Source of the DNA: Pecten maximus
Taxonomy: Eukaryota
Direction: 5' to 3'
Assembly (NCBI RefSeq): GCF_902652985.1
Contig: NC_047019.1
Span: 22,630,001 to 22,694,000 of the forward strand
DNA: 64,000 nucleotides
Part shown: positions 21,001 to 63,300 of the stretch, one piece after another
Numbering within the stretch: position 1 is the stretch's first letter
Layout of the letters: each line of letters starts with the position of its first letter
Program-made: the position numbers

Positions 21001-24000
21001 TCATTATTAATAACTTTGCTAACTATGTGTTATCCATACCACCGAACCCAGTACATGCTTCACCTGCATTTTTGTAAGAAACACGTGTTCGCCTATGAAT
21101 CTTTTGCGGCTTAATCCTTTCATTTTTGACATTAATATAAACTACATGAACAACTATTACTGAAAACGAAATGTTGAACATTCAGCAGGCTAATGCAGCA
21201 TCCATGTTGAAAATATTTACCGCCTGTTGAAATACATGTACTTGTATTTCATGAGTCCTTCATTTTACTTGACAATGCATTAAAACACAACATACCGATG
21301 AATGTACAAACAAAAATGTAATAAAAGAATAATTAGTCTAACTAGGATAAATTCATATATTCAATATATTTGTGCAGAATTTTTTGGTCAATGTAACTAC
21401 AATACTATACTTATGAGGCTAATTATTTACTTGGCATCAGCTGTGGAAATATCAATTAATATATATATATACATTATGCTTGGTGTGTGGCTTCGTTTAT
21501 TCCGTGTTAATGCATAGTAATTAATTATTCAAAACTCCGGGTGGCATATCTACAGCGTCAAACACGCAACCGTGACGTAAGGAAAAACACATTTGCCCTA
21601 ACATGGGAGGTGTGTATAAATGCTAGCAAGAAAATATCAAAAGAAATGCATTGAGCATTGGAAGGTATTATCGTTAAAAGCTTTCTTTGATTAATAGATA
21701 ATTAAGTTCACTGTTAAATATTTCAATCGCTTTAATTATGACAAATTGTACAATGTAGATTATGACGGATATAAGGGGAATGTATGATGGAGTTATGTGT
21801 TGTTCTTTGTTATAAACTTTGCCGGTGGTAAAGACGTTGGTGCATTAGTCATTTGTTATATTTACGGATTACATGTATGAAATTTAAATGTCTTACTCTT
21901 TTGCCTGGTCTATTAAAGTGTCAAGTGGTATTGAATAGATTACTTGTCAGGATAATAACAAATGTGTACAAAGAATATGGAATGCGTCACACTCACAATC
22001 GTACAATAAACCAGTTGTACCCTTGTGTATTTTCACACATATTTATTCTTACTCAAAGACTATGCGATTTTCACAAAGGATTCATTTTCCTTTTGAAATG
22101 AAACAATTCCGTTCAATTTACTCCGTAAAATGTCAGTTTCTATGGCTAATCAGTCTGACATCTGACCATGCCTTCTGTTTAGGTTTTACAAATATTATTT
22201 CATGTACATGTCCTTTCTTACCACATGAATCAAATTATTGTGGATATTTACAGGTAAACACCCATAAATATGTATGTTACAATGTAAGAATGATATAACG
22301 CTAAGTCTTTTATATACCCACGCCTACGATGTAAATGTTGACTCATATAATGTACCTGGTAAGTATGTAAAAATTCTCAGACTGATTCAGACGACGTGAT
22401 TTAAATCTTTTTGCGACTGGTCATTGTTTCAACAAACTGGACCCATGTACCTGGGTAGTTAAGTATATTCTCACCACTTTTATCGTTGTATAATAGGCGA
22501 TTACTCGAGTACCACACCACCAATGTATGTACGGTAGATTATTAGTGAAGTGAAGCTATAATTCTAAAGTAGCCATTTACAACAAGCTTTGTCAGCTTTA
22601 CAAGAATTCTTATCATCTTCTATATTGATACACTTAGTCTATATATCATTTGCTATAATTGCTTCAACATTGTGACGTAGATTCCTAGCATAATTTATCA
22701 TAAATCAATTAGACGTATATAATACACGATAATAGTTATAAATGAGAAAATGTTTATGTTAATTTATTTCAAAATAATATTAAGCTTACTAATCATTCTA
22801 GGAAGGTGTCAGTTAAGTATTGCCGTTATGATTATATGTCAAGCTGCAGGCTAAATCACTAGTGGGTATGTTGCCCTGGTGGATTCCACATACATTGTTG
22901 TAGCAGAAGTTTCCCATGCCATCAGAAGAATACATTACAAATCGTCTTAAGTGTATAGAACATTGTTCATATATACCGCTAAATTGCCAGGTGTTTCTTT
23001 AATTAATTTGTAATTCTTTAATCCTTTCTTAACTTAGTTTTTCGATTAATTTAGTTGGCGTGCTATCTATCCGTAATATCATGATAATTGATTTAAAACC
23101 CTTTTATCTCCATTGAGTCGTTAGAAACAGTCTTACATGTAACTTCGCGGGCTTATATAAATACAGAACAGTGATTTGAACGAAGACAACAACAGTTTTT
23201 TTTTAGTTTCGTTTTTATTTTCAGTTTAAGAATATATGCACATGTTGAACATTTTATGTATAATAATAGTCAGGTAGTTCATACGCTTACTTACACATTC
23301 GTACCTAGTTTATCGACCACTAATTGGTCGAAAGTCTACATAATTTAGATTTGTAAAAAACTAATACAGTAAAGCCTGTGGAACATTTATCAAAGACATG
23401 AACTGACCATGTCTTGTCGTTAGAATCACACCTAACAAAGAAACACATACACACAGATATTCAATTTCATTTACATTTACACTCTCTATCATACTTTTTC
23501 AAGCGCAGCATATAGCAATTTATAGAAGAACACAATAACAGTTTAGGCAGACTGAGCAAATATTCAATAAGTTCATGAAAGACAAATGTATTTGGTCATT
23601 ATTCAATTCCTACAGGTTCTTTTCACCTTATGTAAAACAGGTTTAAGGTTTCCAAACTCTGGCGTCATTGTCTTTTGTTCAGTAGATATAGCACCCGATG
23701 TGAAATGTCTCTTTCCCATTCTCAAGCCTTTGTACAATGCAACTTGTCAAAAAGTTGACAAATATCGAAAATTCATCACTGGAGATTGGATACTCCTACT
23801 TCTTCACATAGCAAATTTTACTGCTTGTCCATTTTGAGACGTCTGAACACATATAGAAGCACAAAACATGCTGAATGACCGTTTGATTGTTTGCGAAATA
23901 AGAATAATAAATAGACTAGTATATTAATGCTGAGTCCGAGAGAACTTCCACAGCTTGATATTCCTTCTAAGGATTTGCTCGTATGAACAGTACTCCAGGT

Positions 24001-60300: not shown

Positions 60301-63300
60301 GAAATGGAAGCCGTTATAACCGGAAATACGCCAACAGATAGGATTAACAATGCGCTGGCAACATTGAGGAGCGAAATGGTAAATATAATGTCTACATTTT
60401 GTATATATATATATATATATATATCTATATGCATAAATTAGAAATTGTCAAGCATTTTAATGATCCAAACTAATCTAATATGATTTAAAAGGTACCTACA
60501 TGACCTCCTATAAAATATGTTTTCTAGTTGAAAATTTTTGATAATAATACATGTTTATCTTTCCAGCTTGACCTCCGACAACAAGATGTCCAGTTAATGA
60601 ATCAACTCATATGTATCAATGATAATATCAAGACGCTGGTTAAACGGAGGACGAACCAAGGGAGACCAATGAGAAAGAAAGTTTCTTTGGTTAAAGGAAG
60701 ACGGAAATTCGTCAATCTGAACGAATCCATTCCAGAGGAGGATTCTAGCTCTGCAGATTCCGATAGCGACGCCAGCATTTCTAGTAACGACAATGACTTG
60801 TAATAGGAAACTGGGATAGAGGAACAGCATTTCAAATGAATCCATCAACTGGAATATTGATTCTGCACTCTAGAAAGAGGGATCACTACCGCCATGTAGA
60901 CAGAAACAAAAGTTTAGCAATTTAAGGTAAATATTTAAAATAACATTCCGAAAAAAATGACTAAATGGTTATTAAATAACGCTCGGTTGTTTAGATTGAT
61001 TTCAGAATATATAGAAATTGTTTTTCTGTATCGAGTAGATAATCATATAACATTCAAATGTTCACATACGTAATGTTCGAATGTATTTGTCTTTTCAGAT
61101 AGCCCCAAGTTTTACTGATCTGCCCACTACGGAGACTAACCCATGACGATGTAAAGGTGTCTGTTCGAGCACGTACCATAGGGTGTTTTTTTGCTGAGAA
61201 CTTGAACACGTATGTGACATAAGGAAATTACGAAATCGCGTGATTCAGTGACGCTCAAAACACTTTCTGGACCCAGATACTTTGATCAGCAGCATGTTTT
61301 TATTTCGAAACTTAACTGGCACAATAACACAATCCGAAAGACGTTTTAATGAAAAAACAGACTTTCCTTTGAATGGTGCTTATTGGATAATTTAAGAGTT
61401 TCCAAACTTCCTAAAAAGATTCCTATATGTGTGCTTAAGAGTATCTGGTACTAATTTGAAGAAGATGTATCAGTGACATTGATATTTTACTAGGGAATAG
61501 CGTCGGAATGGCAAAACAAGCCGCATATACAACTTTGTTCCTTAACGCTCTGTCACTTATTTTGCCAGAGTGTTATTATGTGTTCAACGGGTGCAATATA
61601 TCAACCATAAACAGAAGTATGATATAATGTGAGGTTTTACCTTGAATGTTAATTGATGTCAATATTATGACAAATGCATGAGTTATTATATGTATGAGTG
61701 TGTATGTCAGACTTAAGTATGTCAGACTGAGTGTGAATGTCCGACTGAATGAGTATGTCTGAATGTCTGTGTATATATAGTTGTAAATTCCATGTGCAAT
61801 AGGAAATGTTGCAATTATTTTAAAATCTGGAAAATAAAAACTTACTAATTACTGATGAGTGATATTTGATTTACTTCATGCATCGTCTTTTGTACATGTA
61901 GTGAGTAGGTCATAGTTAAATAAAGAAGCATTTAAAGTTCAGTGAAATATTTCTATCAGGATCCAGAATAATATCATGCAAACTGGTATGTGTACTACTG
62001 TACATTTTGCATATAAAAGTACAGTTTATGTTTATATATACGAACATACAGCACCACACAGGCTAGTGGTACTGATAGTTGTGATAATAGTTTAGGTTTC
62101 AAAATGTTACAAACTATTTTATCAGTTCATGGAATACTAAGTCGAAGTAGACAAACATATATTGCCAACAAAAAATGATGGTACAGAGGTAGTTCAAAAC
62201 TGACCTTGTACTTTAGGAAGATCTAAAAAGTTATAGAATAATAAAATAACTCATTCAATTATAGCTATTTCAGCACACACACAAATGTTACGGTATATGA
62301 ATTTGTTAGTAATGTAACAGTGCTACTATATACGCAAAAGTGATATGGACGCGGTCGTATTGGTAAACTGTTAACATTTGAACCACACAAAACGGTATTT
62401 CACGGATTTGGTATTAACATGTGAACTTTAAATATTGAAGGTATCTTTTACGATATATTGAAGGGCATATACTCGAGATAAATAAAAACAATCAATTACA
62501 TGTTATAACTTTGAGATTTGATTATAACAATGGCATAACAATAAGCTGACAGGAAAAGTAGAAAACGAAAAACGGCAGCCATAGAAATCACAATAATTCC
62601 ATAGAGTCAGTTGTGTTATCTTGTTTCAATATGCTTATCATGCAAACAGTTTAATTCTTGATTTTCAACTGATTACAACACCACAAAGCGACCACTATTA
62701 GTAATGGGTTTTTTGTAGGCAGTAACACCAACATGCATTTTCTACTCGACCATTTATTCCAACATTTTACTCATCTTGGCAATTCCTATGAGTAGGACTA
62801 TAAAACGAATGTTATTTTAAGATATTTACATAGAAACAAGACTTAACTTTTGCGTACTAGCTTCATGCCGTTTTGGCATGTTATAATTCAACAACATCAC
62901 GTTCCGACCTGCAATATCGCAATATGAATAGGTGACCTTAGGTCAATTGAACTACAGATATGATCAGGTATGATTCATTAGGAATACTCTTTTGTAAATG
63001 AACATTTGAGCAACGTTATGCGTAAGGTTTTCATCTCACATTTTTTAATTACTCGTTATGGTAGAAAATCAAAATCACATCCCAACTGACGCCAAGTAGA
63101 AATCTTCTTTGATTTTTGCAGCCTGAATGATATTAATCATATGTAAATATTATCTGTTTGTGTCTCATGTTATCAGGGAGAATTTCGCTCTATTGCACAC
63201 TTTTCCTGTAAAAAAAGTAAATGTTATTTTGACAATCATCGACATATATTTTTTCCGGAGTTTCTTACTTATGCTATTTTGACTGTTTTGGTATTATTGA

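What the first reader, a model, noticed from the sequence alone, without database searches (positions are those of the whole stretch)
23924..60803. Eight-gene tandem expansion of tiny LURAP1/FAM89-like adaptors, hidden from the ORF track by splicing
Seen: eight paralogues of 60-187 aa share a phase-0 intron in the helix RINxALATLRSEM|LDLRQQDVQLMxQLxxINDNI and a basic segment (KRR..RKK..NGR). The seven intact copies also have an acidic serine tract (SxDSDSD). All have a TATA box about 75-105 nt upstream of the ATG. Established: vertebrate LURAP1, LURAP1L, FAM89A and FAM89B are few and dispersed; LURAP1 and FAM89B are MRCK adaptors and FAM89B is linked to Smad2 inhibition. FAM167 has a similar helix, so the family call needs checking. 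Inference: a lineage-specific cluster of compact, rapidly inducible regulators undergoing birth-and-death evolution.
Basis: partly seen in the sequence, partly recalled or inferred. Interest (0 to 1): 0.7.

Follow-up and report, generated by a model that had tools for sequence, protein, structure and literature searches.

The report
Tandem array of small MRCK-adaptor-like genes
Eight neighbouring, spliced mini-genes (plus one dead fragment) encode small proteins whose one conserved helix resembles the helix that vertebrate LURAP1, FAM89B and FAM167A use to dock on MRCK kinases, so this looks like a lineage-specific expansion of a known adaptor family.

Summary
Eight copies lie at 23924-60803: seven on the minus strand and c8 on the plus strand. 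All have a phase-0 GT..AG intron at the same point in a conserved helix. All have a TATA box 79-112 nt before the ATG. Seven carry a basic segment followed by an SxDSDSD tract; c4 is cut short. Model lengths are 60-187 aa.

New here:
- c1-c3 have a second, phase-1 intron.
- A ninth dead fragment lies at 46090-46305.
- c6 is an unequal-crossover chimera of c5 and c7.
- The promoters share a conserved module.

dN/dS is 0.06-0.47, and synonymous sites are saturated between the older copies.

The family call is only partly secured. I searched exon by exon and did not run the joined protein. Exon 2 alone hits Pfam LURAP in 8 of 8 copies, all below the cut-off (12.8-18.7 bits against 25), and never hits FAM167. 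Exon 1 alone hits nothing. Atlas features tie LURAP with FAM167. A 2025 paper shows that both families share one MRCK KIM-binding helix, and its three hotspot residues have the spacing seen here.

Inducibility, expression and MRCK binding are untested.

The parts
23924..24846 (-). c1, three coding exons: 24846-24772, 24623-24368 and 24156-23927, with the stop codon at 23926-23924. Model length 187 aa.
   Evidence: Intron 1 is 148 nt, phase 0, GTAAGT..TAG. Intron 2 is 211 nt, phase 1. The TATA starts at -102.
35967..36813 (-). c2, three coding exons: 36813-36733, 36484-36256 and 36049-35970. Model length 130 aa.
   Evidence: Intron 1 is 248 nt, GTAATT..AAG. The TATA starts at -93, with TCAGTT 31 nt after it.
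43108..43959 (-). c3, three coding exons: 43959-43879, 43590-43362 and 43190-43111. Model length 130 aa.
   Evidence: Intron 1 is 288 nt, GTACGT..CAG. The TATA starts at -92.
46090..46305 (+). psi9, a dead fragment: the promoter box, a degenerate TATA and the first half of exon 1. There is no exon 2.
   Evidence: The promoter box matches at 46097. A weak exon-1 tblastn hit lies at 46266-46301. It aligns to the c4, c5 and c7 promoters, and homology ends after the D-R-I codons.
46901..47213 (-). c4, a truncated copy: exon 1 at 47213-47133 and exon 2 at 47002-46904, followed by a stop. Model length 60 aa.
   Evidence: Homology to c5 ends at 46901. It carries R-to-G and V-to-A changes at two helix columns that the other seven copies share.
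49072..49515 (-). c5, two coding exons: 49515-49441 and 49302-49075. Model length 101 aa.
   Evidence: Intron of 138 nt. The TATA starts at -81, with TCATTT 30 nt after it.
51597..52044 (-). c6, two coding exons: 52044-51970 and 51827-51600. Model length 101 aa. Its 5' part is c5-like and its 3' part is c7-like.
   Evidence: The switch falls between nt 69 and nt 90 of exon 2.
54296..54756 (-). c7, two coding exons: 54756-54682 and 54526-54299. Model length 101 aa.
   Evidence: Intron of 155 nt. The TATA starts at -112.
60304..60803 (+). c8, two coding exons: 60304-60378 and 60567-60800. Model length 103 aa. It is the only intact copy on the plus strand and lies head to head with c7.
   Evidence: Intron of 188 nt. 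The TATA starts at -102.
49070..54291 (.). Two tandem units of about 2.5-2.7 kb, each a gene plus its spacer: 49070-51552 and 51595-54291.
   Evidence: Self-blastn gives 94.9% identity over 959 nt and 89.2% over 1556 nt.

Best explanation
**What it is.** The locus is a tandem family of eight transcription units plus one relic. They encode small, mostly disordered proteins. The only strongly conserved element is one amphipathic helix of about 45-50 residues, and the first intron splits it.

**How it most likely works.** I take the helix to be homologous to the 'leucine-repeat' helix of vertebrate LURAP1 (LRAP35a), LRAP25 (FAM89B) and FAM167A (DIORA1). [quoted passage not shown] The most likely mechanism is that each product binds the host's MRCK-type kinase through this helix and tunes actomyosin contractility. 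The basic segment and the acidic, probably phosphorylated, serine tail would supply a second contact or a regulatory handle.

None of the eight has LURAP1's PDZ-binding end. They would therefore be minimal KIM binders, acting as modulators or competitors, and not bridging adaptors to MYO18A or Dishevelled.

**How the array evolves.** It grows by unequal crossing-over and loses copies by rearrangement.

**Shown here.**
- The gene structures.
- The conserved helix.
- Purifying selection.
- The shared core promoter.
- The crossover chimera.

**Inferred.**
- Homology to the KIM-binding helix.
- Any binding to MRCK.
- Any role of the two tails.
- Expression.
For: **Structure and conservation**
- 8 of 8 copies have the same phase-0 GT..AG intron.
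- Invariant exon-1 residues are R13, I14, A17, L18, A19, L21 and M25. Invariant exon-2 residues are D2, L3, Q5, Q6, D7, L10, M11, Q13, L14, I17, N18, I21 and K26.
- Because the intron is phase 0, I counted straight through the junction by index only, without writing a joined sequence. On that count I14, L21, then exon-2 L3, L10, I17 and column 24 (L in 7 copies, M in 1) fall every seventh residue.
- AlphaFold2 on exon-2 peptides alone gives a helix at residues 3-27 (c1 model) or 3-26 (c6 model), with block pLDDT of 88-97. The rest has low confidence.

**Family**
- Pfam LURAP is hit in 8 of 8 exon-2 peptides, with E from 0.0017 to 0.11, always at profile positions 30-55. It is the top hit in 7 of 8.
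- The Atlas's nearest clusters carry LURAP or FAM167.
- PMC12519202 (sections 7 and 11 read) reports that DIORA1 aa 104-157 binds the MRCK KIM. R124, E126 and D134 were chosen because they are conserved with LURAP1 and LRAP25, and mutating all three abolished binding.
- Here R/K (exon-1 residue 22), E/D (residue 24) and the invariant D7 of exon 2 have the same spacing of i, i+2 and i+10.

**Constraint**
- dN/dS is 0.06-0.47 in 16 of 28 pairs. In the other 12 pairs dS was saturated while dN was 0.17-0.30.
- In the helix half of exon 2, dN is 0.05-0.21 among the older pairs. In the rest of exon 2 it is 0.22-0.53.

**Promoters**
- A TATA box is present in 8 of 8.
- An initiator-like YYANWYY lies 29-31 nt after the TATA in 7 of 8.
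- A GTAAnnGAT box lies 100-124 nt upstream of the TATA in 7 of 8.
- RRTGTAANNGAT matches 8 times in the window against 1.35 expected. Seven matches are at these promoters and the eighth is at the relic.
Against: - Every Pfam hit is below the curated cut-off (at most 18.7 bits against 25) and covers under a quarter of the LURAP profile.
- Exon 1 alone gives 0 of 8 hits.
- The eight hits are not independent, because the copies are paralogues.
- The Atlas scores are under 0.9, which the tool itself rates as leads only. Only 5-6 of the ten best family-bearing hits agree with the top family.
- The match of the hotspot residues rests on spacing alone. The paper's alignment is in a supplement I could not open.
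- The R position is K in c1, c5 and c6. The E position is D in c4-c7.
- No solved structure is related: the best PDB E-values are 0.62 and 0.76, for unrelated bacterial proteins.
- No MRCK sequence of this organism was available, and no expression data.
- The predicted beta-hairpin after the basic segment appears in the c1 model but not in the c6 model.
Confidence: 0.55

Rival explanations
1. The genes belong to the FAM167 (DIORA) branch and not to the LURAP/FAM89 branch. [quoted passage not shown]
For: - The Atlas puts FAM167-bearing clusters level with LURAP clusters (0.86) or first (0.87, tied).
- One FAM89B-named cluster carries both Pfam families (LURAP 34%, FAM167 13%), so the two families overlap.
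- In an annelid, a gene annotated fam167a was a hub co-expressed with HSP genes under sulfide stress (PMC8910992, passages read). Automatic annotation therefore does file lophotrochozoan relatives under FAM167.
Against: - Pfam never reports PF11652 for any of the 8 exon-2 peptides at E up to 10, although HMMER's filters drop most matches above about 0.1.
- The DIORA1 segments that bind CNH (aa 157-183) and C1-PH (aa 184-214) could not be compared, because no tool returned their sequence.
Confidence: 0.25
2. The likeness to LURAP/FAM167 is generic amphipathic-helix similarity. On this reading the proteins are a lineage-restricted family with another partner. One possibility is nuclear factors, with the basic segment acting as a nuclear localisation signal and the acidic serine tract as a casein-kinase-type phospho-acidic tail.
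For: - All database matches are sub-threshold.
- Nothing beyond the helix matches any profile. Exon-3 peptides give only chance hits at E 0.12-0.99.
- A profile of exon 2 also picks up unrelated bacterial helices at E of about 0.7.
Against: - The same Pfam family is hit in the same profile positions in 8 of 8 copies, and it is the top hit in 7 of 8.
- The polar residues R/K, E/D and D sit at exactly the spacing of the experimentally defined hotspots (PMC12519202).
- The invariant D7 interrupts the hydrophobic stripe, which generic coiled coils do not need.
Confidence: 0.15
3. The array is mostly decaying, unexpressed duplicates.
For: - c4 is truncated and psi9 is a fragment.
- No expression data were available.
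- Poly(A) hexamers lie at uneven distances of 139-705 nt.
Against: - Seven of eight reading frames are intact across two or three exons, with canonical splice sites.
- Synonymous sites are saturated between old copies while protein, intron position, TATA, initiator and an upstream box are all kept.
- dN/dS is 0.13-0.17 among c5, c6 and c7, with p from 0.0002 to 0.004.
Confidence: 0.05

Closest known systems
LURAP1 (LRAP35a) and LURAP1L, Pfam PF14854
   Same: - Both have an N-terminal leucine-repeat helix. In LURAP1 this helix binds MRCK (PMC5677176 introduction; bioRxiv 10.1101/2022.03.11.483953 discussion).
- Exon 2 of all eight copies matches profile positions 30-55.
   Different: - All scores are below the cut-off.
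- The proteins here are about half the size or less.
[quoted passage not shown] The ends here are TQH, HNH, HSH, GR, IEN (three copies) and NDL.
- The vertebrate genes are few and dispersed (my own knowledge). Here eight lie within 37 kb.
FAM89B (LRAP25) and FAM89A, also in PF14854
   Same: - Both are small proteins with the KIM-binding helix. LRAP25 links MRCK to LIMK1 (PMC9954052 and the bioRxiv discussion, passages read).
- As I recall it, an acidic serine-rich stretch follows the FAM89B helix. This was not checked in any call.
   Different: - No LIMK-binding region could be tested.
FAM167A (DIORA1) and FAM167B, Pfam PF11652
   Same: - Both are largely disordered proteins with a helical KIM-binding segment. 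The three hotspot residues have the spacing seen here (PMC12519202, section 7).
- The Atlas scores tie FAM167 with LURAP.
   Different: - There is no Pfam FAM167 hit.
- DIORA1 is 214 aa long and has two further MRCK-binding segments. Whether they have counterparts here is unknown.

Membership tests
LURAP (PF14854: LURAP1, LURAP1L, FAM89A, FAM89B) | Score at or above the Pfam gathering cut-off of 25 bits | tested here: not met
   Exon 2 alone scores 12.8-18.7 bits in 8 of 8 copies. Exon 1 alone gives no hit in 8 of 8. The spliced, joined protein was deliberately not searched, so the proper full-length test is still open.
LURAP (PF14854) | Leucine-repeat helix near the N-terminus | tested here: met
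   - Invariant hydrophobic residues fall every seventh position through both exons.
- A helix is predicted with block pLDDT of 88-97.
- The match to profile positions 30-55 is the top hit in 7 of 8 copies.
LURAP1 proper | [quoted passage not shown] | tested here: not met
   None of the eight C-termini has S/T-x-hydrophobic. The ends are TQH, HNH, HSH, GR, IEN (three copies) and NDL.
MRCK KIM-binding helix shared by DIORA1, LURAP1 and LRAP25 | Conserved non-hydrophobic residues matching DIORA1 R124, E126 and D134 (PMC12519202) | tested here: inconclusive
   - The same spacing of i, i+2 and i+10 is occupied by R in 5 copies or K in 3, E in 4 or D in 4, and D in 8 of 8.
- The register is inferred from spacing only, because the published alignment is in a closed supplement.
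MRCK KIM-binding helix | Physical binding to the KIM region of an MRCK kinase | not testable with these tools
   No MRCK sequence of this organism was reachable, and the complex tool takes references from bacteria, archaea and phages only.
FAM167 (PF11652) | Match to the Pfam profile | tested here: not met
   The profile is not reported for any of the 16 exon peptides at E up to 10. Atlas features do reach FAM167 clusters at 0.86-0.87, which counts as a lead only.
LURAP/FAM89/FAM167 genes | Shared intron position inside the helix | not tested

The most novel reading that the evidence does not exclude
The array encodes a battery of minimal 'KIM-helix only' micro-proteins. They have shed the cargo-binding ends of LURAP1 and FAM89B. 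They would act as dosage-tunable competitors or conformational modulators of the single MRCK-type kinase. Two structural classes exist: three-exon copies with an R-x-S/T site in the conserved N-G-R segment, and two-exon copies with K or Q at that position. A shared promoter module (a GTAAnnGAT box with CAGGTG, then TATA and an initiator) would switch them on together.
Probability: 0.15. Interest if true: 0.6.

Novelty: new member of a known kind. Interest (0 to 1): 0.36.

Why it matters
**If the helix does bind MRCK.** This locus would show that the KIM-docking helix, so far studied only in three vertebrate proteins, is old. It would also show that the helix can be multiplied into a local gene battery. 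That gives natural sequence variation, eight versions of one helix, for mapping which residues matter.

**For genome annotation.** The locus is a reminder that 100-aa genes split inside their only domain escape both ORF lists and profile cut-offs.

**For genome evolution.** c6 is a clean, datable example of a new gene made by unequal crossing-over inside an exon.

**In print.** I found no paper pairing these families with molluscs or oysters:
- 'lurap' with 'oyster': 2 papers, judged unrelated from title and abstract only.
- 'fam89' with 'mollus': 0 papers.
- 'fam167' with 'mollus': 0 papers.

Public genome annotations, which I could not search, may already list these genes under automatic names.

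Tried and rejected
- **Exon-1 peptides against Pfam:** 0 of 8 hits. At 25-27 aa they are too short to say anything.
- **Exon-3 peptides against Pfam:** only chance-level hits, RrnaAD at E 0.12 and a cadherin LIR motif at E 0.99.
- **Profile of exon 2 against all PDB chains:** two unrelated bacterial proteins at E 0.62 and 0.76. There is no solved relative.
- **Ten long stop-to-stop frames in and around the cluster against Pfam:** 0 at or above any cut-off, and two weak chance hits. No other gene was recognised among the ten frames tested.
- **A first literature search mixing family names with bivalve words** returned only bivalve papers, because any two terms sufficed. It was of no use.
- **The JBC 2014 LRAP25 paper (PMC4175338)** is not held.
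- **Poly(A) hexamers:** present but at uneven distances, so not informative.
- **Fold search of the models:** not run. A single helix with mean pLDDT of 69 would match anything.
- **Complex prediction:** not run. No MRCK sequence was admissible, and an exon-2 peptide holds only half the helix.
- **The scan of bacterial and archaeal genome contigs:** not used, because it is irrelevant to an animal gene.
- the large protein searches and the metagenome and viral collections. Relatives in other animals therefore stayed unchecked.

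
Full report
**Scope and rules kept.** The window has no N. It is AT-rich, with 30-37% GC in 2-kb windows, and its introns are short. I do not take it for human. The joined protein was never built, searched or folded, so the proper full-length profile test is still open.

**The observation.** Stop-to-stop frames and tblastn with single-exon peptides of copy c5 find exactly eight exon-1 matches and eight exon-2 matches. 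All lie within 23924-60803. Seven copies (c1-c7) are on the minus strand. c8 is on the plus strand, head to head with c7.

- In 8 of 8 copies exon 1 ends on an ATG codon followed by a good GT donor. Exon 2 follows an AG after a pyrimidine-rich run. The intron is 130-288 nt and phase 0.
- c1-c3 have a further phase-1 intron after the residues SSIE-G, and a third exon that carries the acidic serine tract. In c5-c8 that tract lies in exon 2, directly after I-P-E-E. The two-exon class therefore lacks about 20-30 residues and an intron that the three-exon class has.
- Model lengths are 187, 130, 130, 60, 101, 101, 101 and 103 aa.
- The first acceptor of c2 is AAG, and the exon-3 acceptors are my best picks among several in-frame AGs. 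These are predictions.

**Conservation.**
- Exon 1 keeps R13, I14, A17, L18, A19, L21 and M25 in all eight copies.
- Exon 2 keeps D2, L3, Q5, Q6, D7, L10, M11, Q13, L14, I17, N18, I21 and K26.
- Because the intron is phase 0, the residue count runs straight on. I14, L21, then exon-2 L3, L10, I17 and column 24 fall every seventh residue. A second stripe four residues later is broken only by the invariant D7.
- AlphaFold2 on exon-2 peptides alone predicts a confident helix over residues 3-27 (c1) or 3-26 (c6), and little else. A beta-hairpin over the segment around N-G-R appears in the c1 model only.

**Selection and age.**
- Over the first 55 codons of exon 2, dS is saturated in 12 of 28 pairs. 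In the other 16 pairs dN/dS is 0.06-0.47.
- dN is lower in the helix half than in the rest of exon 2.
- Over the whole of exon 2, c5 against c7 gives dS 0.32, dN 0.043 and a ratio of 0.14 (p = 0.0002).
- The older copies share no flanking similarity beyond the promoter. This is therefore an old family under purifying selection, and it is not a recent burst or a transposon passenger.

**Promoters.** An alignment of the 264 nt before each ATG shows three features.
- A TATA box is present in 8 of 8 copies, starting at -79 to -112.
- An initiator-like YYANWYY has its A 29-31 nt after the first T of the TATA in 7 of 8 copies. The strict TCAKTY form is present in 5 of 8.
- An upstream box with the invariant core GTAAnnGAT lies 100-124 nt before the TATA in 7 of 8 copies and 71 nt before it in c3.

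RRTGTAANNGAT occurs 8 times in the window against 1.35 expected. Seven matches are at these promoters (c2 differs by one base) and one is at the relic. CAGGTG sits next to or after the box in c1, c2, c7 and c8. Keeping these blocks while synonymous sites saturate argues for real, similarly regulated transcription units. It says nothing about what induces them.

**Birth and death.**
- *Tandem units.* Self-blastn shows two tandem units, 49070-51552 and 51595-54291.
- *c6 against c5.* c6 matches c5 at 97% upstream, 100% in exon 1 and 96% in the intron, but only 67% downstream.
- *c6 against c7.* c6 matches c7 at 94% downstream, but only 68-69% in the intron and upstream.
- *Where the switch falls.* Inside exon 2, the 2 informative sites up to nt 69 group c6 with c5. 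Of the 16 sites from nt 90 to nt 222 at which c6 sides with either c5 or c7, 14 group it with c7. Three further sites in that stretch group c5 with c7, and two differ in all three copies.
- *Reading.* This is the pattern expected if c6 arose by unequal crossing-over between c5 and c7 within exon 2.
- *c4.* It loses homology to c5 at 46901 and runs into a stop after 33 exon-2 codons. It also has two changes at helix columns that the other seven copies share.
- *psi9.* At 46090-46305 (+) there is a ninth fragment. It keeps the box, a degenerate TATA and the first half of exon 1, and then ends.
- *c2.* The first 48 nt of its exon 2 are 90% like c5 but 77% like its sister c3. This may be a short conversion tract.

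**What family.**
- Pfam on exon 2 alone gives LURAP (PF14854) in 8 of 8 copies, with E from 0.0017 to 0.11 and 12.8-18.7 bits against a cut-off of 25. The match is always at profile positions 30-55 of 118. FAM167 is never listed.
- Exon 1 alone gives nothing.
- The ESM Atlas places c6 exon 2 nearest to LURAP-bearing clusters (0.89 and 0.86) and a FAM167 cluster (0.86). It places c3 exon 2 level between FAM167 and LURAP clusters at 0.87. All of these are under 0.9, so they are leads only.
- The PDB has no relative.

- PMC12519202 (outline, section 7 and passages of section 11 read) shows that DIORA1 (FAM167A) binds MRCK kinases.
- Its helical segment aa 104-157 binds the KIM.
- R124, E126 and D134 were chosen because they are conserved with the KIM-binding motifs of LURAP1 and LRAP25. 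The triple alanine mutant lost binding.
- Here the residues at exon-1 positions 22 and 24 and at exon-2 position 7 have that same spacing. They are R/K, E/D and D.
- The paper's alignment is in a supplement that is closed, so the register is my inference.
- PMC5677176 (passages read) defines LURAP1 by N-terminal leucine repeats that bind MRCK and by a C-terminal T-F-L that binds PDZ domains. None of the eight copies has such an end.

**Verdict.**
This is a lineage-specific tandem expansion of small genes carrying the LURAP/FAM89/FAM167-type helix. By Pfam it is closest to LURAP, but it does not meet the profile cut-off exon by exon and it lacks LURAP1's PDZ-binding end.
- The MRCK-docking mechanism is an inference from homology.
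- Inducibility and expression are untested.
- No paper in the searched library links these families to molluscs or oysters. An annelid study names a fam167a gene as a stress-module hub (PMC8910992, passages read).
- I rate it a new member of a known kind, of moderate interest.

Noticed in passing
window 2483-6191 (+): A U1A/U2B''-type snRNP gene (SNRPA-like) in several exons. Two exons hit Pfam RRM_1 above the cut-off: 2761-2928 at 39.9 bits and 5994-6188 at 29.3 bits. Further exons were recognised by eye.
   Followed up: partly
window 10331-10403 (-): A tRNA-Cys (GCA) gene. Rfam scores it 67.5 bits and ARAGORN also finds it. It was the only Rfam match in the window at gathering scores.
   Followed up: yes
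window 56705-57301: A 21-nt satellite between c7 and c8, with 17.7 copies at 90% matches, plus a shorter inverted block at 56705-56784.
   Followed up: no
window 57351-57754 and 59072-59534: An inverted repeat pair at 93-96% identity, each arm holding 59-nt tandem units. The arms flank about 1.3 kb. It may be a foldback-type mobile element. No protein family was found in the long frames there.
   Followed up: partly
window 52551-52792: About 240 nt that break the c5-unit/c6-unit homology. The frames here are noticeably G+C-rich and proline/glycine-rich. It is probably a small insertion in the c6 spacer.
   Followed up: no
window 56111-56346 and 63444-63680: A dispersed repeat of about 240 nt at 82% identity. 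There is also a local tandem duplication at 8296-8475 / 8490-8658 at 86% identity.
   Followed up: no
window 36437-36484 (c2 exon 2 start): The first 48 nt of c2 exon 2 are 90% identical to c5 but 77% identical to c3, although c2 and c3 are otherwise sisters. In that stretch dS for c2 against c5 is 0.16, compared with 1.2 in the rest. This may be a short gene-conversion tract, or constraint at the nucleotide level next to the splice site.
   Followed up: partly
c1-c3 versus c5-c8, in the conserved segment after N-G-R in exon 2: In the segment G-R-x-x-F, the three-exon copies have S or T (RRTF, RMSF, RMTF). The two-exon copies have K or Q (RRKF, RRQF). The former fits a basophilic-kinase site (R-x-S/T). 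Whether this is a phospho-switch is speculation.
   Followed up: no
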